Assembly (NCBI GenBank): GCA_963695555.1
Contig: CAVOGR010000001.1
Location: forward strand, 480,001 to 544,000
Direction of reading: 5' to 3'
Origin: an uncultured Gemmatimonadales bacterium
GTDB lineage: Bacteria > Gemmatimonadota > Gemmatimonadetes > Gemmatimonadales > GWC2-71-9
Length of the DNA: 64,000 bases
The number at the start of each line of letters is the position of its first letter. Position 1 is the stretch's first letter. Position numbers and translations under genes: made by a program. The notes under the pieces are model-generated. The model made no database searches. It was not told the origin of the DNA and saw only the letters and a program-made list of their open reading frames with translations. Shown here in pieces: positions 18,565 to 30,615 of the stretch.

Positions 18565-18760
18565 CCTCCGGGCAGCGACCAGGCAACATGAGGTAAGGCA
18601 GCAGTCGGGGCTTCCCTGCCATGGTCTAGCCCTCGCCTCCTTCTCGCTTCATTCTTGCTTCATCCTATCGCGCGAACTTTGGGGACTATTGCTCTCTCAA
18701 TTGGCTCGTCCCCGTGAGTTTGCGGCCTCGCGCCTCCCTACGTTTGTTCGGAGCATCGCC

Positions 18761-20440
18761 ATGAGCACTTCTGCTGGAGCCGTTCAGGGACTCGATCGGG
18801 AGACCCTCGACATGACGCTCGAGGCCATCCGGGATTTCGCCGATCAGAACCTGCCGCAGGAGCTGCTCCTGGAACTGGATGCCACCCACGAGTTTCCGGA
18901 GGCGCTGATCCGGGCCATGTGCGGCGAGTTGGGCATCCAACTCCTGTTTATTCCCGATGCCTACGGCGGGATGGGAGGCGGCTCGTTCGATGTCTACCGC
19001 GTCTGTGAGCTCATGGGATCCATCGACCTCGGCGTCGCCACCGGGGTGCTGGCCACGTTCCTCGGCAGCGACCCGATTCTCTGGGGCGGCACCGACGAGC
19101 AGAAGGCCCGCTGGATGACCCGTATCGCCGAAGAAGGCCTGCTCATGGCCTACGGCGCGACCGAGCCCGAGGCCGGAAGCGATCTGGGCGCGCTGCGCAC
19201 CACTGCGGCGCGCATCGAGGACGCCGGGACAGTGACCGGCTACCGGTTGAACGGCGCCAAGATGTGGATCAGCAACGGCGGCTTCGCGGATCTGTATAGC
19301 GTGTTGGCCCTGGCGCCCGGCGGACCGACCTGGTTCGTCATGGAAAAGGGCGCTGAGGGGTTCACCTACGGCAAGCCCGAAGACAAGCATGGCATCCGCT
19401 CGAGCAATACGGCGGCGCTCTTCTTCGACAACGTCGGTATTCCGGCCGAGAACCTCATCGGCACGGAGGAGGGCCAGGGGTTGGTGCAGGCGCAGTTGGT
19501 GTTCGGATATACCAGGCTGATGGTCGCCGCGTTCGGGCTTGGGGCAGGATGGGCCGCACTCGACCGTGCGTTGGAATACTCCACTACCCGAATCCAGGCG
19601 GGCGGCCCGCTCTCCGGGAAACAGGGCTACACCCACAAGCTGATCGTGCCGCATGCATGCCGGCTCGAGGCCGGCCGGGCTTTCATCGAAGAGACCGCCA
19701 TGCGGCTGGACGGTGGCGAAGGCAGTCTCAATACCGAGGGTGCCATCGCCAAGTACATCGCAACGGAGGCTGGAAACGATGCCGCGGAGGCGGCGATCCA
19801 GGCCCTCGGTGGGTACGGGTACACGCGCGAGTACATCGTGGAGAAGATCAAGCGGGACGTCCGCATCACCACCATCTACGAAGGCACGTCCGAGATCATG
19901 GAGATGACCATCGCGCGCGATCGGTGGCAAACCCACTTGAAGACGCGCGGGCAGCACTATCATGACGACGCGACCCGGCTGCGGGAGCTGGCCGCGTGCA
20001 GCCCGGGCGTGGGCGCTGATGTGGCTGCGCTCGCGGCGGATGGCCTTGGTCACCTCCTGGAGCGCGCCCGGGTCGGACGGCTCACCCGGAATCAACACGT
20101 GCTGTTCCGGCTGGGTGCGCTGATTGCTCGGGTGGAAGCGGCGGGAGCGCTGGCGCGGCGAGCGGCGGCCGCGGCGAACGGAGCGCTGCCGCCGAAGGCG
20201 GACCAGCGACTGGACCCGGAGTCGCTGGCATTGGCCAGTCGTATTTATGCGCGCGAAGCGGCTTCCGCGGTTGTCTCCGAAGGACTACGCTGGGTGCTTG
20301 GTGCGGACGGGGTGCCGTCGGCGGAGCTCGCGGCATTCGAGGCTTTGCTGGGTACTGGAGCGATCCATTCAGCACAGGCCGGGTTGGTGGACGACATGGA
20401 CCGTCTGGCGCAACGGCTGTATCGGCGGTATGAGGCTTGA
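18761..20440 (+). CDS. Acyl-CoA dehydrogenase family protein with C-terminal extension
   Basis: YGATEPEAGSD, LNGAKMWISNG, EDKHGIRSSNT, IQALGGYGYTREY, IYEGTSEI; GGAG RBS. Confidence 0.93.
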   Translation: MSTSAGAVQGLDRETLDMTLEAIRDFADQNLPQELLLELDATHEFPEALIRAMCGELGIQLLFIPDAYGGMGGGSFDVYRVCELMGSIDLGVATGVLATFLGSDPILWGGTDEQKARWMTRIAEEGLLMAYGATEPEAGSDLGALRTTAARIEDAGTVTGYRLNGAKMWISNGGFADLYSVLALAPGGPTWFVMEKGAEGFTYGKPEDKHGIRSSNTAALFFDNVGIPAENLIGTEEGQGLVQAQLVFGYTRLMVAAFGLGAGWAALDRALEYSTTRIQAGGPLSGKQGYTHKLIVPHACRLEAGRAFIEETAMRLDGGEGSLNTEGAIAKYIATEAGNDAAEAAIQALGGYGYTREYIVEKIKRDVRITTIYEGTSEIMEMTIARDRWQTHLKTRGQHYHDDATRLRELAACSPGVGADVAALAADGLGHLLERARVGRLTRNQHVLFRLGALIARVEAAGALARRAAAAANGALPPKADQRLDPESLALASRIYAREAASAVVSEGLRWVLGADGVPSAELAAFEALLGTGAIHSAQAGLVDDMDRLAQRLYRRYEA

Positions 20441-20496: not shown

Positions 20497-23400
20497 ATGA
20501 AATCGACGGCTGACAGGGCAATCGCTATTGTCGGGGTGGGAGCGGTCCTGCCGGACGCACCGAACGCCGCGTCGTTCTGGACCAACCTTTGTGAAGGTCG
20601 CTACAGCGTGTCCGAGGTCCCAATCGAGCGCTGGGATGTCGCGAGATACTTCGATCCCGATCCCAAGGCCGTGGACAAGACCTATTCGAAGATCGGCGGA
20701 TGGGTACGGGAGTTCGAGTGGAATCCCCTCGGGTGGCGCTTGCCTATTCCACCGAAGGTGAGTGAGGTGATGGACCTCGCCCAAAAGTGGGCGATCGTCT
20801 CGGCCCGGGAGGCCTTGGCGGATTACGGCTATCCCGACCGCGCCCTCGATAAAGAGCGCACCGCAGTGATCATGGGCAACGCACTCGGCGGGGATTATCA
20901 CCTGATGACGGCCATGCGGGTGCTCTTTCCGGAAATCGCCGCGGAACTGACCGGGTCCAAGAGTTTCCAAGCATTGCCCGGGGCAGTGCAACGTGCCGTC
21001 GTCGACGAACTGCGTTCCGGCGTTCAGGCCCGGATCCCAGACATCACGGAAGACACCATGCCCGGCGAGCTGGCGAATATTGTCGCCGGCCGCTTGGCCG
21101 CCCTGTTCGATTTCAAGGGCCCGAACTACATCACCGACGCCGCCTGCGCCTCAGCGATGGCCGCCGTCAACGCGGCGGTCGAAGGGCTGAACGGGCACGA
21201 CTTTGACGCCGTGCTCACCGGCGGCATCGATGCCAACATGAGCCCGTCGACCTTCGTCAAGTTCTGCAAGATCGGAGCACTCTCGGCCACCGGGACCCGC
21301 CCCTATGCGGAGGGAGCCGACGGCTTCGTCATGGGCGAGGGTGCTGCGTGCTTCCTGCTCAAGCGACTCGACGACGCTGAACGTGCGGGCGACCCGATCT
21401 ATGCCGTGATCCGCGGGCTCGGCGGCTCGAGCGACGGACGGGGCAAGGGCATCACAGCCCCCAATCCCGTCGGCCAGCGGTTGGCCGTGGTCCGGGGCTG
21501 GGAGCGACGCGGGCCTGCTTCCCGAGGCAGGCGACTTGGTCGAAGGGCACGGGACCTCGACCAAGGTCGGAGACGTGGTCGAGGTGGAGAGCCTGACGGA
21601 AGTGCTTTCAACGTCACGGTTTGCCAGCGCAATCCGTCGCCTTGGGATCCGTGAAATCCAACATCGGTCACTTGAAGGCGGCTGCGGGGGCCGCGGGCCT
21701 CCTCAAGGCAACGCTCGCACTGCACCACAAGCTCATGCCGCCCAACATCAACTTCCACGCGCCGAATCCCGCAATCGACTTCGTCCGCTCACCGTTCCGC
21801 GTCACCACCGAGCTTCAACCGTGGGAAAAGCCTGGGGTCAACGGAGAGTCAGTACGCCGCGCCGGCGTGAGCGCCTTCGGATTCGGGGGGACCAACTTCC
21901 ATGTCGTGCTGGAGGAGTACGTGCCGGGCCGGCTCGCGCGAGAGCGGACATTGGTGGCTTCGGCCGGACTCACCGCCGGGTCGTCGGAGACAGGTGCGGC
22001 ACTCAAGTCTCCGCTTCGCGGAGCGATGGTCGTGGGTGGTTCCTCCGAAGCCGAGATTGCCAGCCGGCTCCGGCTCATCAAAGCCGAGGCGGATCGAGGA
22101 ATCGCACCGCCGCCCGAGGCGCCGCTCGCACGGGACCTCGCGGCACCCGTCCGACTCGCCATCGACTACGGCGATGCGGCTGACTTGAGCGATCTGGCGG
22201 GCAAGGCGCTGCAGGCGTTCGAGGAGGGACAGGAGGGCAGGTGGCGGGCGCTTCGCAACAAGGGGGTGTACCTCGGACGCGGTACGCCCGGGAAGGTTGC
22301 CTTCCTCTTTACCGGCCAGGGCTCGCAGTACGTGAACATGCTGGCGGAGCTCCGGGCCACGGAACCCATCGTTGCCGAGACGTTTGTCGAGGCCGATCGG
22401 ACGATGGAACCGTTGATTGGACGTCCGCTCACAGATTGCATCTTCGTCGACCCAACCAATGAGGACCTCGCGGCCCAGGCGGCCGAAGGTCTCCGTCAAA
22501 CGGCCATCACTCAGCCGGCCGTGCTCACCGTCGATACGGCGCTCGCTCGTCTGCTCGACGCGTACGGCATCGTGCCCGACATGGTGATGGGCCACAGCCT
22601 CGGCGAGTACGGCGCATTGGTGGCGGCTCAGGCACTCCCGTTTGCCGGTGCCCTGACCGCCGTTGCGGCGCGCGGCAAGGCGATGACCGAACTGTCCCTT
22701 GGAGACAACGGTCTCATGGCTGCCGTGTTCGGACCGGTTGACCGCGTCGAAGCGCTGTTGCGGGACACGCCGGGTTACGTCGTGGTCGCCAACCTGAATA
22801 GCAGGAAGGAATGCGTGATCGGCGGGGCCACCAAGGCGGTCGAGGCCGCGATGACCGCACTTCAGGCGGAAGGACTGCGTGTCGCACAGCTTCCGGTGAG
22901 TCACGCGTTTCATACCAAGATCGTAGAGCCGGCAGCGGCACCGCTCACCGACGTGTTGACGGGGCTCGGCGTTCGGCCTGCCGCAATCCCAACCATCTCG
23001 AATGTGACCGGTGAATTCTATCCCATGGGTCAGGGCGTAGAGCCGCAGATGATCGAACTCCTGGGCCGCCAGATCGGGTCGCCGGTGCAATTCGTGAAGG
23101 GCCTCAACACGCTCTATGAGTCAGGCGCCCGAGTGTTCGTGGAGTTGGGTCCGAAGCGCGTCCTGTACGGCCTGGCCGACGATGTGCTGGGTGAGCGCGC
23201 CGGTTTCGCCGCGTTCTACACCAATCATCCTCGAACCGGAGACGTTGCCTCGCTCAACCGCGCGCTGTGCGGACTCTATGCGGAAGGCCTCGGACGTGGC
23301 GCAGAAGAGCCTGTGCCCGAGATTCATGCCGTGTCACCGCGTCCGGCTTCAGCTCACGCGCGTGCAGGCATACCCGCGGCGCCCGCCGTTCCTCAGCTGC

Positions 23401-26400
23401 CGCGTGTCGGAGATGCCGAGTCTCCAGATCGGCTCCTGACCTTGGGCCGCATGTTTGCCGACTTTCTCGAGCAGAGTTTCGAGGTCTACTCCGGCGGTGC
23501 CGCGCGACAGGTCCGAGTTGGGATCACCGGGGCATCACTCGGTCTCCCTGGCACCGAGCGGGTCTTCGAAGAAACCAACCTCGAGCGCATTCTCGGCGGG
23601 GAGGTGTTGATCGGGAACATTCCCGACAGATTCCGCCGTACCATGGCCGACATGCACGTCACACGCTTGGTGAAGGGAGCGGGTGGCGAGGCCAACTTCG
23701 TGTCGGTCAACGACCCCAGCGGCGTCATCAAGCTCGCCGGCATCGGCGGGAAGCTCGACCTGGCGGGCGAGTACGGCTTTCCCGAAGACCGGGTGCAGGC
23801 GCTCGATCGGATTACCCGCCTGGCCATCGCGGCGGGGATCGAAGCCCTGCGCGATGCCGGCATTCCTCTCGTCCGGCGATACAAGACCGCCACTACCGGA
23901 TCGATGCTCCCAGTTGGCTGGAGTCTCCCCGAGGAAATGCGGGATGACACCGCAGTCATCTTCGGGTCGGCGTTCCCTGGAATCGATGCCCTTGCCACGG
24001 CCATGGATGCCTATCATGAAGATCGCTCACGTCGTGGACGGCGTGACGAGCTCCAGGCGTTGCGGACGGGCCTCCTGGCACGTGACGATGCTGCCGCCAT
24101 CGCCGAACTGGATCGACGCATCGAAGCGTTGACCAGTGAGATCGAGGCCAATCCTTTCGAGTTCGACCGCCGGTTCTTGTTCCAGGTGCTCACGATGGGA
24201 CACTCGCAGTTCGCCGAATACATCGGCGCCCGCGGCCCCAACGTCCAAACCAACTCGGCCTGCGCCACCAGCACGCAAGCGGTGGCACTGGCCCAGGACT
24301 GGATCCAGGCGGGACGCTGCCGCCGCGCCATCGTGCTGACCGCGGACGACATCACCACCGACGCGCTGCTGCCTTGGATGGCGAGCGGCTTCCTGGCCTC
24401 GGGCGCTGCTGCTACCGACGAGCGGGTGGAAGATGCGGCCCTGCCGTTCGACCGCCGCCGGCACGGCATGATCATAGGCATGGGAGCCGCCGCCATGGTG
24501 GTGGAAGACCTGGCGGCTGCGGCGGAGCGCGGGATCCAGCCGGTTTGCGAGGTATTGGGGACCATCACCGCCAACAGCGCCTTCCACGGGAGCCGCCTCG
24601 ACGTCGATCACATCGTCGGCGTGATGGAAGAGCTGGTCGCCGGTGTCGAACGCCGCTGGGGCCTGTCCCGGCATCAGATCGCAGCGCAGACCGTGTTCGT
24701 CTCCCACGAGACCTACACGCCGGCCCGCGGCGGGAGTGCGAGCGCAGAAGTGGAAGCGCTCAGGCACGTGTTCGGCGGTGTGGCCGATTCGATCGTGATC
24801 GCCAACACCAAGGGATTCACCGGCCACGCGATGGGAGTGGGAATCGAAGACACCCTGGCGGTCAGGATGCTGGAGACCGGCATCGTCCCGCCCGTTGCCA
24901 ACTTCCGCGAGATCGACCCGGCACTTGGGGCACTCAATCTCAGCCGTGGCGGCAGCTACCCCGTCATGTACGCGCTCAGGCTGGGTGCCGGATTTGGATC
25001 GCAGATCAGCATGATGCTCCTGAAATGGACGCCGCCGCCGGATGGGGCGAGGCGCTCCCCAGGTGACATGGGCTACCAGCACCGCATCGCGGCCCCCCCA
25101 GCATGGCAAGAGTGGCTGACCCGGGTGACCGGATACGATGCGCCAAACTTGGAAGTCGTCCGGCGGACCTTGCGGGTCAAAGATCAGGGACCACCGAAGC
25201 GAGAGCCAGCGCGCAAGCCGCTCAGGCGTGCGCCGGACCTGCCGCTCGTCGGTGCGCCGGTTCGTGAGGCCGGCCCACCACCGGTCCGTCCTCTGTCCCA
25301 TGTTCCCGCTCCCGAATTGGTGACCCGGTCGGCGGCTGTGGTCCACCCGCCTGCAGCCGCTCCAGCCGTGGCCGTCCCGCCTGTGCGCGCGGAAGCGTCC
25401 AAGGTGCCCGGCGCGGATGGAGTGGCCGAACGAATTCTCGCGATCGTCGCCGAACAAACCGGCTATCCAAAGGACATGTTGGCGCTCGATCTCGATCTGG
25501 AAGCCGATCTCGGCATTGATACCGTGAAACAGGCCGAGATGTTCGCCGCCATCCGGGATGCGTATAACATCGAACGAGATGAGAACCTGGCCTTACGAGA
25601 CTATCCGACCCTCGCGCGGGCAATCGAGTTCGTGTATGAGAAACGTCCCGACCTGAAGCAGGTCGGGGCAGCTGCTCCCATTGCCACGACCGTACCATCT
25701 CCGTCGGCCGCCCCCGCGCCGCCACTCGTCGCAATCCCGTCGGATGGCATCCGGGAGCGGGTCCTCGCGATCGTGGCCGAGCAGACCGGGTATCCGCCCG
25801 ACATGCTCGACCTCGACCTCGACCTCGAGGCCGATCTGGGCATCGACACGGTGAAGCAGGCGGAGATGTTTGCCGCCATTCGGGAGGTCTACGGCATCGA
25901 GCGCGACGAAACGCTCGCGTTGCGCGACTATCCAACCCTCGCGCGGGCCATCGAGTTCGTGTACGAGAAACGTCCCGACCTGAAGCAGAGTGGCGTTGCC
26001 ACTGCCGCTTCTCCAGCAGCTCCAATTGTTCAGCCAACTTCCACGGCTCGACCCGCTGCCGCCGAAGCTGACAGCGTGCGGGAGCGGGTCCTTGCCATTG
26101 TGGCCGAGCAGACCGGGTATCCGCCGGACATGCTCGACTTGGACCTCGACCTCGAGGCCGATCTCGGCATCGACACGGTAAAGCAGGCGGAAATGTTCGC
26201 CGCCATCCGGGAGGTCTACAGCATCGAGCGTGACGAGACGCTCGCGCTGCGCGACTATCCAACCCTGGCGCACGCGATCGAGTTCGTGTTCGAGAAGCGT
26301 CCCGACCTCCGGGGAACCAGGCCCGATGCAAAGGCGGAGCTGCAGGCCGCGCCGCCGGTGGAGCAAGACGTCGCATTACCTGACTCCGACCGTGTGGTGC

Positions 26401-29201
26401 GCGACAGCGTGCTATCGATCGTGGCCCAACAGACGGGGTATCCGCCCGATATGCTCGACCTCGATCTCGATCTCGAGGCCGATCTCGGTATCGACACGGT
26501 GAAGCAGGCGGAAATGTTTGCCGCCATCCGGGAGGTGTACAGCATCGAGCGGGACGAAACGCTGGCGCTCCGCGATTATCCAACCCTAGCGCACGCGATC
26601 GAGTTCGTGTTCGAGAAGCGGCCGGACCTGCGAAGCGGGACCCCGCCCGATGCAAGACCGGTCGTTTCTTCGGACTCAGCGATCGTACCGCCAAGCGCAA
26701 CCACGGTGCATACTGGCCCGGTATACGCAGGCTCGGAAGCGGCGGCGCAGGCGGTGCCGCGCCGCGTGCCGGTTGCACTGCTGCGGCCGCCGGCCTCGCG
26801 ATTCACTCGAACCGGCGTTCAGCTCGGAGCAGGCGACCGAGTACTCGTGGCCTTGGACGTGGGCGGCGTGGGGAAGGCTCTGGTCCGGCAGCTGACCAAG
26901 CGCGGGGTGACGGCTCTGGTCCTGGATGATTGTACCGATCCGGAGGATCTGCAGCGCCGAATCGGCGAGTGGACCGCCGACGGTCCTATCAATGGGGTGT
27001 ATTGGCTGCCGGCGCTCGACCCGGTGAGTGATGCCGACCTGCTCGATCCCGAGGCGAGGTTGGTTGCCATCAACTGCCGGATCAAGTCGCTGTTCCGACT
27101 CATGCGGGCGCTATATGATCAGCCACTGTTCCTCATCACAGCCACGCGGCTCGGCGGGAAGCACGGCTACGATGAAGCCGGCGCCACCGACACGATTGGT
27201 GGTGCGGTTGTCGGCTTTACCAAGGCGTTTGCTAGAGAAAGGCCCGAGTGCCTGGTGAAGGCCGTTGATTTTGCTCCGTCGCGGAAGACGACAGCCGTGG
27301 CCGACCAGCTGATTGACGAGACTCTGTACGACAAGGGTATCGTCGAAATCGGCTACGGGGATGGCCATCGGTGGACGGTGGGTCTCGAGTCCCGGGCCAT
27401 TGAGTTTGGTGACCAACTGAGCGGTGCCGATCGAGTATTCGTTGTCACAGGCGCGGCTGGAAGCATCGTGTCCGCCATCGTGGCCGACTTAGCGGCGGCC
27501 TCGAAGGGAATCTTCTGGCTACTCGACCTTACTCCGGAACCAAATCCCGACGATGCCGACCTCCAGCGGCTCGAGTCGGATCGTGACGGGCTCAAGCGGG
27601 ATCTGTTCGACCGCCTGAAGCGATCGGCAGAGCGCGTGACCCCCGCCATGGTGGAGCAGGAGATCACGCGGATCGAACGATCCCGGGCGGCGCTCGCCTC
27701 GATTCGTGCGGTCGAAGCGCTTGGAGGACACGCTCGGTATCGCGCGGTGGACCTGAGGGATGTCGATCGGGTGGCACAGGTGATGTCCGAAGTCGTCCAG
27801 GAGAGTGGACGGGTCGACGTGCTGCTGCATGCGGCGGGGCTCGAGGTCAGCCGCCCCCTTCCCAAGAAGGAGCCTCGTGAGTTCGACCTCGTCTTCGACG
27901 TCAAGATCGACGGGTGGTTCAACCTGCTTCGAGGCTTGGGCGATGCCCCGCTGGGTGCCGCGGTGGTATTCAGCTCGATCGCCGGCCGCTTCGGCAACGC
28001 CGGGCAGACCGACTATAGCGCGGCCAACGACATGCTCTGCAAGGCCATGTCGGCACTACGCCGCACCAGACCGGATACCCGCGGAATTGCCATTGATTGG
28101 ACGGCATGGGCGGACATCGGGATGGCCACGCGCGGGTCCATACCCGCCATCATGAAGCAGGCGGGGATCGACATGCTGGCGCCCGAGGCTGGAATCCCCG
28201 TGGTCCGTCGGGAATTGACCGCCGGCACCCGGGGAGAGGTGGTGATCGCGGACGGCCTCGGCATCATGCTGGACGAGACCCAGGCCAGAGACGTAATGCT
28301 GGGCGGAGCCGAGTCGTCGGCGGCTGGGCTCATGGTCGGAACGGTCGAATCGTTTGGTCCCTACGGCGGGCTCGTCGTTCAGACCCGGCTCGACCCCGAG
28401 GCCCAGCCGTTTCTCCGGGACCACCAGATCGACGGCACGGCCGTGCTGCCGGGTGTGATGGGGCTCGAAGCGATGTCCGAGGCCGCGCTCGTCGGATTTC
28501 CCGACCGGTTCGTCGGCGCCCTCGAGCGCGTCGAGTTTCTGCAGCCGTTCAAGTTCTATCGCGGCGAGGCGCGCACCGTCACGGTCAAGGTTCAGTACGC
28601 CCTCGACGGTAAGGATATCCTGGCCAACTGCCGGCTCGAGGGGTCGCGGCAGCTGCACGGCCGGACGGAGCCCGAGGTCACGACCCACTTCACCGGCACC
28701 GTCCGGCTTACAGCGAAGCCGCCCGACGAGGCACGCTTACGCAGCGTGCCGCCGGTGTCGGACGCCGTGGTAGGAAGCGATGCGATCTACCATGTCTACT
28801 TCCACGGCCCCTCCTATCGCGTGGTGGGCAACGCCTGGCGGGCCAAGGACGTCCTGGCCGGTCAGCTCGCGCGCGGCCTGCCCGCCGGGCAGGAGCCGGC
28901 TGGCGGGTCTACCATTGTCGCGCCGCGGCTCGTGGAGCTCGCATTTCAGACTGCTGGTCTTGCCGAGATCGCGCAGTCGGAGCGCATGGGCCTGCCGAGC
29001 CGGATCGAACGCCTCGAGTTCCGGCGTGCGGCCAACGGCGAACCGGACGGTTCAACCGCGCTGGTCGAGGAAGCCGGCGATGGAGCATTCGACGTCGACG
29101 TGACCGACAAGACCGGTCGTGTCTTGCTGTCGTTGCGCGGATACCGGACCAACCCGCTGGGCCGGGTTGAGAACGCCCCGTTCCAGGCGCTCAAGGCCTG
29201 A
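20497..29201 (+). CDS. Pfa-like iterative type I polyketide/fatty-acid synthase KS-AT-KS-ACPx4-KR-DH (about 2900 aa when joined), interrupted by two +1 frameshifts near 21505 and 21605
   Basis: KS1 DAACAS / EGHGTST / NIGHLK; AT GQGSQ, GHSLG, HAFH; KS2 NSACAT / SHETYT / TGHAMG; four [13 protein letters not shown]s; [39 protein letters not shown]. The ORF track splits it into 20497..21654, 21536.. and 21621..29201. Confidence 0.92.
25420..26630 (+). repeat. Four tandem ACP-coding direct repeats (about 230 bp each) separated by Ala/Pro-rich linkers
   Basis: Near-identical [36 protein letters not shown]...[21 protein letters not shown] units starting near 25420, 25750, 26077 and 26395, differing mainly at third codon positions. 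Confidence 0.95.
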
Positions 29202-29920
29202 TGGAAGCGACGATTCGTACAACGGCCGGGCCCGGCACGGTGGTCACGCTGGTGACTGGACGAGCCGGGAAGGTTCCCGCCGGCGACCGGTGGCTTTCCC
29301 CTCTCGAGCGGTCGGTCGAGGCGAGACTCCGCTGGCCCAAGCGCCGGTCGGACTGGCGGCTTGGCCGGTGGGTCGCGAAACGGGCGGTCATCGCCTGCTT
29401 GCAGGACGAGCAAATCGAGCCGCCCGACATCGAAATTCTCGCGCAGGAAACCGGCGCACCCGGTGCCCGCGTTCTCTCGGGCCCGGTCACGGTTCCGGTG
29501 AGCGTCTCCATAAGCCATAGCGATGGAGTTGGCCTGGCCGCCGCCGCCGTTGGCGACGTCGCGCTCGGATGTGATGTGGAGCGGATTGAACCACGCACCG
29601 AACGGTTTGTCGCGGATTACTTCACCGCTGCGGAGCGGGAGCGGGTCGCTCGGACCGTGGCGGTCGATCGTCCGACGGTCGTCACGCTCATCTGGAGTGC
29701 CAAGGAAGCCGCGCTCAAGGTGCTGGGGGAAGGCATGCGTCTCGATGCCAGGGCCGTCAGCGTCGAAGTACCCATTGGGCCGCACGCGGCCTGGGACCAG
29801 CGTTCCGCGTTCCGCGTCCGGCTGCCGGATGCTCGGTGGATTCCGGGGTGGTGTTGGGTCGGCGACGGGTTCGTCTGGACGATCCTGGGTGACCGCCCGG
29901 CGACCATCGCGCTCGCCTGA
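29201..29920 (+). CDS. 4'-phosphopantetheinyl transferase, Sfp-type
   Basis: SVSISHS, LGCDVE, WSAKEAALKVLGEG; TGATG overlap with the PKS stop. Confidence 0.92.
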   Translation: MEATIRTTAGPGTVVTLVTGRAGKVPAGDRWLSPLERSVEARLRWPKRRSDWRLGRWVAKRAVIACLQDEQIEPPDIEILAQETGAPGARVLSGPVTVPVSVSISHSDGVGLAAAAVGDVALGCDVERIEPRTERFVADYFTAAERERVARTVAVDRPTVVTLIWSAKEAALKVLGEGMRLDARAVSVEVPIGPHAAWDQRSAFRVRLPDARWIPGWCWVGDGFVWTILGDRPATIALA

Positions 29921-30101
29921 TTCTCCAGAACACAACCAGTTCCCCACCAATTCGGCCACACGCCCGGCTTGCTTGGGACCGGGAAGGTTTCCTCCATTGC
30001 GACTCGTGGTCGGGGAAGGGCTCCCTGCCGGTCACGAGGGCGACCAACCGTGCACATCGCTAAGCTCTTGCCCGCCAACACACTCACAATTCTTGGCGGG
30101 G

Positions 30102-30116
30102 TGGTACGGAGAATGC
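30102..30116 (+). promoter_or_regulatory. Sigma54 -24/-12 promoter
   Basis: TGGTACGGAGAATGC (GG-N10-GC), 80 bp upstream of ATG 30196. Confidence 0.65.
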
Positions 30117-30195
30117 TTCTACCTGTAGATGTGCCCGAGGCGTAGGTGGGCCTCGGCTGGTCGTTCAACATCTAGGACGAAGGAGCTGGACTATT

Positions 30196-30615
30196 ATGAG
30201 CAGGATGACTTCGGGTATTGCCGTTTCACTGTTGGCCCCACTGGCACTCATGGTCGGCAGCACCACCCTCGTGGCCCAGGAGGCCATGGCCGAGCATTGC
30301 AGCGCTTCCTTCTCTCAGGAGACGATCCCGGTTCAGGTCGAGCCGGTGATGTTGAAGGTCACCATGTCGCAAGGGATCGGGGACCTCACGGGTGGAATGG
30401 CGAGCGAGGAGAGCGGCATCGTGGTGAAGGAGGTCAAGACCGCGGACGAGGGCATGATCCTGTCGCTAGACACCAGCAAGGCCGTGGCCGGCGAGTGGAA
30501 GCTCGGCTTCACGGGCTCAGAAGGCGCGTGCGATGGCAAGGTCAAGGTCAAAGCCGCCGCGGAACAGACCAAGGATGTTGAGAAGGCAAAGGAAGTCGAA
30601 AAAGCAAAGGAGTAG
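30196..30615 (+). CDS. Hypothetical secreted protein
   Basis: AAGGAG RBS, signal peptide ending LVA-Q, two Cys, C-terminal VEKAKE repeat. Confidence 0.75.
   Translation: MSRMTSGIAVSLLAPLALMVGSTTLVAQEAMAEHCSASFSQETIPVQVEPVMLKVTMSQGIGDLTGGMASEESGIVVKEVKTADEGMILSLDTSKAVAGEWKLGFTGSEGACDGKVKVKAAAEQTKDVEKAKEVEKAKE

What the first reader, a model, noticed from the sequence alone, without database searches (positions are those of the whole stretch)
25420..29920. All four ACP domains have threonine at the phosphopantetheine site, next to a dedicated PPTase
Seen: every ACP reads [15 protein letters not shown], where Pfa-type ACPs read DLGID-S-IK. The Thr codons are ACC (25521), ACG (25848), ACG (26175) and ACG (26496). 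Two codons across synonymously diverged repeats argue against sequencing error and for selection. No Ser-type ACP is present in the synthase or window, the KS/AT/KR/DH sites look intact, and an Sfp-type PPTase is translationally coupled. Known: the carrier-protein Ser is essentially invariant. Inference: a Thr-phosphopantetheinylated carrier with its own specialised PPTase, i.e. an orthogonal carrier/PPTase pair insulated from housekeeping PPTases. Best candidate in this window for an undescribed system.
Basis: partly seen in the sequence, partly recalled or inferred. Interest (0 to 1): 0.9.

Follow-up and report, generated by a model that had tools for sequence, protein, structure and literature searches.

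The report
Lipid synthase carriers use threonine
A large soil-bacterial lipid/polyketide synthase carries threonine instead of the near-universal serine at the spot where its carrier domains receive their swinging arm, and this holds for its whole widespread family, always beside its own arm-attaching enzyme.

Summary
All four carrier (ACP) domains read [11 protein letters not shown], with Thr codons ACC, ACG, ACG and ACG at the stated places. An Sfp-type PPTase gene overlaps the synthase stop codon (TGATG).

The trait belongs to the whole family. I found no Ser at the site in 267 ACPs from 80 related loci fetched through a different domain. A census of 268 retrieved proteins gave 1041 Thr and 151 Ser among 1211 ACP domains. 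All four Thr codons are used.

The gene cluster itself is known: it matches the 'Type R secondary lipid synthase' of Shulse & Allen 2011, product unknown. That paper's main text never mentions threonine, and nine full-text searches found no report of a Thr attachment site.

The PPTase lies directly downstream in 34 of 36 loci that could be assessed, and is fused to the synthase in some relatives. In a 151-genome phylum sample, a close PPTase homologue occurs only in the two genomes that hold the synthase.

The host's fatty-acid ACP keeps Ser and has its own AcpS. My best reading (0.65) is that Thr is the phosphopantetheine site. Orthogonality to other PPTases is untested.

An earlier scan note covered this family on other DNA but not the Thr. 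The two frameshifts in the first KS look like assembly errors.

The parts
18689..20440 (+). Acyl-CoA dehydrogenase-family gene (583 aa as listed; true start uncertain), conserved directly upstream of the synthase
   Evidence: Pfam Acyl-CoA_dh_N, _M and _1. A tblastn homologue lies upstream in 74 of 80 related loci.
20497..29201 (+). Type R-like iterative synthase, KS-AT-KS2(CLF)-ACPx4-KR-DH. In this assembly it is read as two ORFs (20497-21654 and 21621-29201) because of two 1-bp insertions.
   Evidence: Pfam domains. NCBIfam PfaA model 692 bits, below its 1010 cut-off. Full-length relatives of 2,900-3,200 aa.
21506..21506 (+). Extra base that shifts the frame inside KS1; probably an assembly error
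   Evidence: Absent in L004 and L005 and in contigs of 4 of 4 runs.
21605..21605 (+). Second extra base inside KS1; probably an assembly error
22302..23165 (+). Acyltransferase domain (GHSLGE)
   Evidence: PF00698 at residues 228-515 of P0001; sequence.
23418..25130 (+). Second ketosynthase-like domain ('CLF' of Shulse & Allen) that keeps its Cys (NSACATS)
   Evidence: PF00109 and fabF-like hits at residues 858-1136. Used as the ACP-independent query.
25419..25673 (+). ACP1; Thr codon ACC at 25521-25523
25746..26000 (+). ACP2; Thr codon ACG at 25848-25850
   Evidence: structure model.
26073..26327 (+). ACP3; Thr codon ACG at 26175-26177
26394..26648 (+). ACP4; Thr codon ACG at 26496-26498
27678..28115 (+). 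Ketoreductase catalytic part (YSAAN)
   Evidence: PF08659 at residues 2020-2165.
28362..29171 (+). PKS-type dehydratase ([10 protein letters not shown])
   Evidence: PF21089 and PF14765 at residues 2248-2517.
29201..29920 (+). Sfp-type 4'-phosphopantetheinyl transferase, 239 aa; its start codon overlaps the synthase stop (TGATG)
   Evidence: PF01648 and 4PPT_N. Aligns with Sfp motifs SISHS, GCDVE and WSAKEAALK. Junction shown.

Best explanation
The locus encodes an iterative type I fatty-acid/polyketide-like synthase of the 'Type R secondary lipid synthase' kind: KS-AT-KS2-ACPx4-KR-DH, an acyl-CoA-dehydrogenase-like gene upstream and a PPTase downstream.

Shown: in this family the tandem ACPs carry an invariant Thr at the first turn of helix II, where other carrier proteins have the Ppant serine. 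The PPTase is genetically welded to the synthase. The host also keeps a normal Ser-type AcpP with its own AcpS.

Inferred: the co-translated Sfp-type PPTase transfers 4'-phosphopantetheine from CoA onto this Thr hydroxyl, by the same Mg2+/Glu chemistry used for Ser. This would give an O-phosphopantetheinyl-threonine arm that carries the growing chain. The Thr, together with the invariant surrounding DLG-x-D-T-V-K-Q-A-E surface, would make the carriers clients of their own PPTase rather than of AcpS. How far that insulation goes is unknown.
For: (1) The Thr aligns with the Ppant Ser of solved ACPs. It starts helix II in a confident ACP-fold model.

(2) Thr is family-wide.
- 629 of 629 motifs in the 120 best homologues plus the query.
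- 263 Thr and 0 Ser in 80 loci fetched with the KS2 domain, which is independent of the ACP motif.
- 270 Thr and 0 Ser in an HMM scan of all six frames of those loci plus the window; the AcpP positive control was detected.
- 1041 Thr, 151 Ser, 13 cut and 6 other among 1211 ACP domains of 268 proteins; 221 proteins are all-Thr.

(3) Selection acts on the amino acid. The codons are ACG 114, ACC 112, ACA 21 and ACT 20, and 48 of 78 loci use more than one. Ser codons are one base away yet never appear in the canonical repeat.

(4) No other hydroxyl is available as a site. There is no conserved Ser in the domain, and ACP1 and ACP2 have no Ser at all between helix I and the end of helix IV.

(5) PPTase linkage.
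- It lies directly downstream in 34 of 36 assessable loci.
- Two cut loci have it just past their ends, and the one true exception (L042) has it on another contig.
- It is fused to the C-terminus of Thr-type synthases P0202 and P0182.
- In a 151-genome sample of the phylum the synthase occurs in 2 genomes, and a close PPTase homologue (448-520 bits) occurs only in those 2; all other matches score 52.5 bits or less.

(6) The PPTase catalytic motifs are intact.

(7) The complex model of PPTase + CoA + Mg + ACP scored 0.77 against a best control of 0.16. That mark was reached by 116 of 157 solved complexes and 2 of 215 mismatched pairs. The runs agree in at least 96% of contacts, and the partner's pLDDT is at least 76. 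ACP residues 34-36 lie in the interface, and V36, next to Thr35, touches the catalytic residues E127 and E169 and W165. Sfp-carrier complexes have been solved, so this pass may only reflect that likeness.

(8) The same genome has a Ser-type AcpP (DLGADSLDTVEL) in a fabG-acpP-fabF row, an AcpS-sized PPTase, and a third PPTase next to another Ser-type carrier. That is three carriers and three PPTases.

(9) On a KR-domain tree of 165 rows the Ser/Thr state changes only twice, and the Type R core clade (130 rows, support 99) is all Thr.
Against: There is no experimental evidence here or in any paper I found that a PPTase can use Thr. From memory (no call): the E. coli ACP S36T mutant is reported as not modified by AcpS.

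I found no residue signature common to the Thr-associated PPTases. The invariant GCDxE of Type R PPTases is GVDIE in the fused PPTases of Thr-type P0202 and P0182.

Three of 268 proteins combine Ser- and Thr-bearing ACP-like domains (P0144, P0185, P0189). At least some lineages may therefore serve both types, which weakens strict orthogonality.

The complex model may pass simply because Sfp-carrier complexes are solved, and it cannot tell Thr from Ser.

The homologue sets came from similarity searches that start from a Thr-type query, so the Thr:Ser ratio is not an unbiased census of all carriers.
Confidence: 0.65

Rival explanations
1. Thr is the Ppant site, but nothing is specialised. Sfp-type PPTases in general tolerate Thr in this sequence context. 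The in-cluster PPTase is simply the usual companion of a horizontally moving cluster, so the pair is not orthogonal.
For: The catalytic motifs are ordinary. No Thr-linked signature was found in the PPTases. Ser-type relatives of the same architecture also carry a fused PPTase (P0222). A few synthases mix Ser- and Thr-type ACPs. In-cluster PPTases are common in Ser-type Pfa clusters too (PMC3098273, passages).
Against: If Ser and Thr were interchangeable, single-base Thr-to-Ser changes should drift into some of the more than 1,000 canonical repeats. None was seen. The state changed only twice on the KR tree.
Confidence: 0.2
2. The Thr domains are never phosphopantetheinylated. They would be apo 'pseudo-carriers' with a scaffolding or docking role, and the chain would ride on a trans Ser-type ACP such as AcpP. 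The PPTase would then serve another client.
For: Thr is not a known PPTase acceptor (recalled). The genome does hold a Ser-type AcpP.
Against: Three to eight tandem copies with an invariant DLGxDTVKQAE face are kept in hundreds of lineages. No Ser-type carrier lies within about 10 kb of any of the 80 loci. The PPTase is adjacent or fused and travels only with the synthase. In the complex model the ACP residues around Thr35 lie at the PPTase catalytic centre.
Confidence: 0.08
3. The Thr carries a different group, or is used differently. Examples would be direct O-acyl (oxoester) loading by the AT domain, or another CoA-derived prosthetic group. In either case the chemistry on the carrier would differ from thioester chemistry.
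For: Nothing direct; only that Thr is unprecedented as a Ppant site.
Against: KS, KR and DH domains of the normal thioester-dependent kind are intact. The linked enzyme is a canonical Sfp-type PPTase with CoA/Mg motifs. No other prosthetic-group transferase is conserved in the neighbourhood; the conserved genes are ACAD, ETF, ACC and the PPTase.
Confidence: 0.05

Closest known systems
Type R secondary lipid synthase clusters (Shulse & Allen 2011, PMC3098273; Koribacter, Solibacter, Elusimicrobium, Roseiflexus)
   Same: One pfaA-like gene with KS-MAT-CLF-ACP(3-6)-KR and a PPTase gene downstream. An acetyl-CoA carboxylase gene lies between them in Acidobacteria. The distribution across phyla is patchy. 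The PPTase has the hShxH (P1b') motif. All of this matches the window and its relatives.
   Different: The paper's main text does not mention threonine (0 occurrences). It treats the ACPs as ordinary. It does not list the DH domain or the conserved ACAD/ETF genes. I did not check that the paper's five named genomes carry Thr.
PfaA/PfaE of bacterial PUFA synthases
   Same: Tandem ACPs, KS-AT-ACPn-KR-DH order and a dedicated Sfp-type PPTase. The best NCBIfam model is omega_3_PfaA.
   Different: Pfa ACPs read DLGIDSIKRVEIL with Ser (for example P0181 and P0200). No PfaB, PfaC or PfaD genes are present here. The PfaA model score is 692, below its cut-off of 1010. A second KS sits inside the same protein.
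Sfp with PCP/ACP (PDB 4MRT, 1QR0) and Sfp-type PPTases in general
   Same: About 240 aa with two half-domains and the SxSH, GxDxE and WxxKExxxK motifs. The predicted docking of carrier helix II onto the catalytic Glu/Asp.
   Different: The acceptor residue would be Thr, a secondary alcohol. Sequence similarity to Sfp is weak (E about 0.009).
Enediyne PKS (PksE) with a built-in PPTase domain (recalled, no call)
   Same: Iterative type I PKS whose PPTase is part of the same polypeptide, as in the Thr-type relatives P0202 and P0182.
   Different: Enediyne PKSs have a single Ser-type ACP and make polyenes. Here the PPTase is a separate, translationally coupled gene.
Engineered orthogonal PPTase/tag pairs (Sfp/AcpS with the ybbR, S6 and A1 tags; recalled), and the D35N 'DSL' mutant that blocks AcpS but not Sfp (bioRxiv 10.1101/2025.01.28.635281; abstract and passages read)
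   Same: Small changes around the acceptor residue can restrict which PPTase loads a carrier.
   Different: Those pairs all keep Ser. This would be a natural pair in which the acceptor residue itself has changed.

Membership tests
Type R secondary lipid synthase cluster (Shulse & Allen 2011) | A single pfaA homologue with domain order KS-MAT-CLF-ACP(3-6)-KR | tested here: met
   Pfam finds KS, AT, a second KS, 4 PP-binding domains and KR, plus a DH. Relatives have 3-8 ACPs.
Type R secondary lipid synthase cluster (Shulse & Allen 2011) | PPTase gene downstream of the synthase, with an ACC gene in between in Koribacter | tested here: met
   In the window the PPTase overlaps the synthase stop codon. 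It lies downstream in 34 of 36 assessable loci, and ACC lies between in 50 of 63 loci.
Type R secondary lipid synthase cluster (Shulse & Allen 2011) | PPTase with P1a x(G/D)xP and P1b' hShxH motifs | tested here: met
   TGAPG and VSISH in the window PPTase. G85, P87 and S103 are invariant in 15 sequences. Motif definitions come from the passage read.
Type R secondary lipid synthase cluster (Shulse & Allen 2011) | KS phylogeny groups it with the paper's Type R genomes | not tested
   The paper's sequences were not fetched. Acidobacterial relatives, including Korobacteraceae MAGs, are among the best loci.
Carrier protein, PP-binding (PF00550) | Four-helix ACP fold and a Pfam match above cut-off | tested here: met
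   104.5 bits against a 20.8 cut-off. Model pLDDT 88.2 with ACP top hits.
Carrier protein, PP-binding (PF00550) | Conserved Ser at the start of helix II as the Ppant site | tested here: not met
   Thr in 4 of 4 domains here and in 1041 of 1211 domains of the retrieved family. These are homologues by fold and sequence but depart from the family's hallmark residue.
Carrier protein, PP-binding (PF00550) | Actually carries 4'-phosphopantetheine | not testable with these tools
   Needs mass spectrometry.
Sfp-type (group II) PPTase | About 230 aa with two PPTase half-domains and the catalytic Asp/Glu/Glu and Lys motifs | tested here: met
   PF01648 at 64.2 bits. 4PPT_N scores 20.1, below its cut-off of 27. 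GCDVE and WSAKEAALK align with GIDIE and WSMKESFIK of Sfp.
PUFA synthase PfaA (TIGR02813) | Score above the model cut-off and PfaB/C/D partner genes | tested here: not met
   692 bits against a cut-off of 1010. No PfaB, PfaC or PfaD among the window ORFs scanned at 15-45 kb.

The most novel reading that the evidence does not exclude
The tandem ACPs of this widespread family carry a post-translational modification not seen before: O-(4'-phosphopantetheinyl)-threonine. It would be installed by a PPTase clade that has co-evolved to require Thr. Housekeeping AcpS and Sfp enzymes would be unable to load these carriers, and the cluster PPTase would not load Ser carriers. That would make this a natural orthogonal carrier/PPTase pair, usable as a new labelling and pathway-insulation tool.
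Probability: 0.3. Interest if true: 0.85.

Novelty: new variant of a known kind. Interest (0 to 1): 0.72.

Why it matters
The serine that receives phosphopantetheine is treated as a defining, invariant feature of every acyl, peptidyl and aryl carrier protein. Domain predictors and textbooks rely on it.

Here a large, ancient family replaces it with threonine and holds that threonine under strong selection. In a 50%-identity library, 781 representative clusters match one ACP at E <= 1e-30 (a count that mixes Thr- and Ser-type proteins), and about 120 of the best 150 are Thr-type. The records come from Acidobacteriota, Gemmatimonadota, Actinomycetota, Chloroflexota, Calditrichota, Bacteroidota and Desulfobacterota.

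If the Thr is modified, three things follow:
- It extends the chemistry of PPTases to a secondary alcohol and adds a new protein modification.
- It may explain why these clusters always carry their own PPTase.
- It could give a natural orthogonal tag/enzyme pair.

The test is cheap and direct: two small proteins, CoA and a mass spectrometer. The result would also flag that automated 'active/inactive ACP' calls based on Ser wrongly score these synthases as dead.

Tried and rejected
Sequencing error or pseudogene as the cause of the Thr. Rejected: there are four synonymous codons and family-wide conservation. The two KS frameshifts are absent from relatives and from the contigs of 4 runs.

An alternative Ser within the domain as the true site. 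Rejected: there is no conserved Ser.

A separate Ser-ACP gene in the cluster. Not found in the six-frame scan of 80 loci plus the window.

A PPTase residue signature for Thr. The invariant 'GCDxE' of Type R PPTases looked promising, but the PPTases fused to Thr-type P0202 and P0182 read GVDIE. I claim no signature.

Literature. Nine full-text searches and term look-ups in four papers found no report of Thr as a Ppant site or of this motif. The library holds only open-access papers and preprints. I did not open the supplements of PMC3098273 (alignment figures S1-S3, File S1), and they may show the ACP or PPTase alignments.

Earlier scan notes by sequence found nothing.

L076 counted as 'room but no PPTase', but its synthase frame breaks inside the ACPs, so it is not a real exception.

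The first attempt to define the synthase end by tblastn with a mis-framed DH query failed and was replaced by walking the frame to its stop codon.
Full report
OBSERVATION.

The window holds a long + strand gene for a multidomain synthase. Its main ORF (21621-29201) has AT, a second KS, four PP-binding domains, KR and a PKS-type DH by Pfam. The N-terminal KS lies in the preceding ORF, 20497-21654.

All four carrier domains read [17 protein letters not shown].

phmmer against PDB sequences aligns this Thr with the phosphopantetheine serine of solved ACPs, such as PigH DLGVDSI and Aquifex ACP DLGADSL.

An AlphaFold2 model of ACP2, built on 30 family sequences, has mean pLDDT 88.2, and helix II begins at Thr35. 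Its best Foldseek matches in the PDB are ACPs, with TM 0.69-0.89 and rmsd mostly 1.4-2.1 A.

The next gene (29201-29920) is an Sfp-type PPTase (PF01648, 64.2 bits). Its ATG shares one base with the synthase stop codon, TGATG. It aligns with the SxSH, GxDxE and WxxKExxxK motifs of Sfp.

IS THE GENE BROKEN?

In this assembly the first KS is read in three frames. The cause is two single extra bases, at 21506 and 21605.

Both are missing from two close relatives that are 96-98% identical in the KS2 domain. Both are also missing from contigs of all 4 public runs that I laid, which come from 4 studies and include one contig more than 99% identical.

I therefore treat them as assembly errors. The gene is intact in the natural population. 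KS1 keeps its Cys (DAACAS), and the AT, KS2, KR and DH motifs are present.

THE THR IS A FAMILY TRAIT.

Homologues found through the ACP region: a search with that region returned 7,264 proteins at E <= 0.001 among 7,999 scored candidates. In the 120 best plus the query, all 629 attachment motifs have Thr. That query contains the motif, so the result is biased.

Independent query: I repeated the retrieval with the KS2 ('CLF') domain alone. Of 329 candidate stretches, 277 encode a relative, and the best 80 loci were kept.
- A motif scan that allowed any residue at the site found 263 Thr and 0 Ser.
- An HMM scan of all six frames of these loci plus the window (15,177 frames) found 275 ACP domain hits. 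Of these, 270 have Thr, 3 are cut by frame breaks, 1 reads His at a frame break in L007, and the single Ser hit is the AcpP that I added as a positive control.

Exhaustive search: HMMER with one ACP against 1.84 billion representative proteins gave 6,065 hits at E <= 0.001 and 781 at E <= 1e-30. Of the best 150, about 120 are Thr-type (DLG[IV]DT[VI]KQ[AV]E). About 28 are Ser-type, reading DSIKRVEIL or DSIKKAQLF.

HMM census over all 268 retrieved proteins: of 1211 ACP domains, 1041 have Thr, 151 Ser, 13 are cut and 6 have another residue. 221 proteins are all-Thr, 26 are all-Ser and 3 mix Ser with Thr. In the mixed proteins the Ser sits in a diverged extra domain, not in a canonical repeat.

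Codons: the Thr codons in 267 ACPs are ACG 114, ACC 112, ACA 21 and ACT 20. 48 of 78 loci use more than one codon within a single gene. Ser is one base change away from every Thr codon and never appears in a canonical repeat. Selection therefore holds Thr specifically.

Other residues: an alignment of 30 ACPs has 25 invariant columns, including D34 T35 V36 K37 Q38 A39 E40, and no conserved Ser anywhere.

Tree: on a KR-domain tree of 165 proteins (155 Thr-type, 10 Ser-type; FastTree) the state needs only 2 changes. The Type R core clade of 130 rows (support 99) is entirely Thr. Many long branches make the deep order unsure.

WHAT THE CLUSTER IS.

The architecture and neighbourhood match the 'Type R' secondary lipid synthase of Shulse & Allen 2011 (PMC3098273; passages read). 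That type has:
- one pfaA homologue with KS-MAT-CLF-ACP(3-6)-KR;
- a PPTase gene downstream;
- an acetyl-CoA carboxylase gene in between in Koribacter;
- a patchy spread over Acidobacteria, Elusimicrobia and Chloroflexi;
- an unknown product.

I see the same in the relatives. A 1,863-aa multidomain ACC lies between synthase and PPTase in 50 of the 63 loci that reach the synthase end. An acyl-CoA-dehydrogenase-family gene lies directly upstream in 74 of 80 loci. In most acidobacterial loci an ETF-alpha gene lies before that.

The window's own cluster has only ACAD, synthase and PPTase. It is flanked by arginine-biosynthesis genes upstream and regulators downstream.

It is not a canonical PUFA synthase. 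The PfaA model scores 692, below its cut-off of 1010, and no PfaB, PfaC or PfaD was found in the region scanned.

The paper's main text has no occurrence of 'threonine' or 'serine'.

ORGANISM AND SPREAD.

The closest records are Gemmatimonadales MAGs, 96-98% identical in KS2. The other loci come from Acidobacteriota (most of them), Actinomycetota, Calditrichota, Bacteroidota and a MAG whose record is labelled Deferribacteres and whose isolate name contains KSB1. Named protein hits add Chloroflexota and Desulfoluna.

Within a 151-genome sample of the window's phylum, only 2 genomes have the synthase: the window's own and one of the same genus. This fits horizontal spread.

THE PPTASE LINK.

Adjacency: of 36 loci with enough DNA after the synthase or ACC, 34 have the PPTase directly downstream, with gaps of about 0-100 bp to the preceding gene in most. 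One of the two misses (L076) has a frame break in the synthase and is not a real exception. The other (L042) truly lacks it nearby, but its genome has a PPTase of this clade on another contig. Two loci that had been cut short have the PPTase just beyond their ends. In all, 4 of 4 genomes checked score 274-330 bits.

Fusion: in relatives P0202 and P0182 the PPTase domain is fused to the C-terminus of a Thr-type synthase. The Ser-type P0222 has the same architecture, also with a fused PPTase.

Co-occurrence: in the phylum sample a close homologue of the PPTase (448-520 bits) exists only in the 2 genomes that have the synthase. The other 37 genomes with any match score 52.5 bits or less.

Other carriers in the host: the window's genome has three PPTase genes and three kinds of carrier.
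- An AcpS-sized PPTase, and a canonical AcpP (DLGADSLDTVEL) between fabG and fabF.
- A PPTase on contig C2 beside a Ser-type carrier (GGIVDSGSV) that continues into a longer protein I did not annotate.
- The cluster PPTase with the Thr-ACPs.

Complex model: PPTase alignment + CoA + Mg + ACP alignment scored 0.77, against a best control of 0.16. That mark was reached by 116 of 157 solved complexes and 2 of 215 mismatched pairs. The runs agree in at least 96% of contacts, and the partner's pLDDT is at least 76. ACP residues 34-36 lie in the interface; the listed least-error contacts of V36, next to Thr35, are with PPTase E127, L162, W165 and E169. The invariant PPTase residues R48, R132, F136 and D139 touch the invariant ACP residues 29-32 and 39-43. 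Sfp-carrier complexes have been solved, so the pass may be 'from memory'. It shows a canonical docking mode, not that Thr is used.

MECHANISM.

Shown:
- a complete set of thioester-type catalytic domains;
- tandem carriers whose only candidate acceptor is Thr35;
- a catalytically intact PPTase that is genetically inseparable from the synthase.

Inferred:
- The PPTase transfers Ppant from CoA to the Thr hydroxyl.
- The holo Thr-ACPs then carry malonyl and acyl chains through KS/KS2, KR and DH cycles.
- The ACAD-like enzyme, with ETF where present, is a candidate for the missing enoyl reduction or for a desaturation. This is speculation.

Why Thr? I can only offer hypotheses: insulation from AcpS-type enzymes, resistance of a secondary-alcohol phosphodiester to Ppant hydrolases or to beta-elimination, or a conformational effect of the methyl group on the arm. 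A preprint shows that one change next to the Ser (D35N) already blocks AcpS but not Sfp (10.1101/2025.01.28.635281; abstract and passages read), so small changes at this motif can insulate a carrier.

Against strict orthogonality: I found no PPTase residue signature that tracks Thr, and a few synthases carry a Ser-type ACP next to Thr-type ones.

NOVELTY.

The gene cluster type is known. The Thr at the attachment site appears not to be.

Nine full-text searches and term look-ups in four papers found nothing. A 2026 survey of Pfa-like systems states that its ACPs 'all harbor the conserved Ser' (PMC13291983; passage read).

These searches cover open-access papers and preprints only, and I opened no supplements. 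From memory (no call): curated lists of protein modifications include Ppant-serine but not Ppant-threonine, and the E. coli ACP S36T mutant is reported as unmodifiable.

I therefore class this as a new variant of a known kind. It is testable in a few days of bench work, and a carrier-protein specialist would find it surprising if it holds.

Noticed in passing
window 21506 and 21605: Two single extra bases split the first KS into three frames. They are absent in close relatives and in the contigs of 4 public runs, so they are probably assembly errors rather than a pseudogene.
   Followed up: yes
window 18689-20440; L011:4254-6930: An unusually long (560-580 aa) acyl-CoA-dehydrogenase-family gene sits directly upstream of the synthase in 74 of 80 loci. 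In most acidobacterial loci an ETF-alpha gene precedes it. It could supply the enoyl reduction or a desaturation that the synthase lacks.
   Followed up: partly
L011:15336-20927 and 49 other loci: A single-chain, eukaryote-like acetyl-CoA carboxylase (BC-BCCP-central-CT, 1,863 aa) lies between synthase and PPTase in 50 of 63 loci. It is absent from the window's Gemmatimonadales cluster.
   Followed up: partly
own genome G000:C2:21636-26300 (L003, L089): A second small cluster holds a Ser-type carrier domain (GGIVDSGSV) at the start of a 291-aa ORF, an NAD-dependent epimerase-like gene, and a third Sfp-type PPTase. The domains were not annotated with Pfam here.
   Followed up: no
proteins P0202, P0182, P0222, P0174, P0118: Relatives show domain shuffling: a PPTase fused to the C-terminus (P0202 and P0182 Thr-type; P0222 Ser-type), and an N-terminal NMO/enoyl-reductase-like domain (P0174, P0182). 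P0118 from Desulfoluna has 8 Thr-type ACPs.
   Followed up: partly
protein P0185 (534-aa fragment): A Type R fragment whose first ACP is diverged and has Ser (DLGVDSIKQAEAF), followed by two canonical Thr-type ACPs. It is a natural case in which one synthase may need both acceptor types.
   Followed up: partly
phylum sample: The synthase is found in only 2 of 151 sampled genomes of the window's phylum, both of the same genus. This suggests recent horizontal acquisition, and the closest non-Gemmatimonadota relatives are acidobacterial.
   Followed up: partly
window 30129-30581 and 29523-30128: The ORFs just downstream of the PPTase have no Pfam match. I did not examine whether they belong to the cluster.
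   Followed up: no
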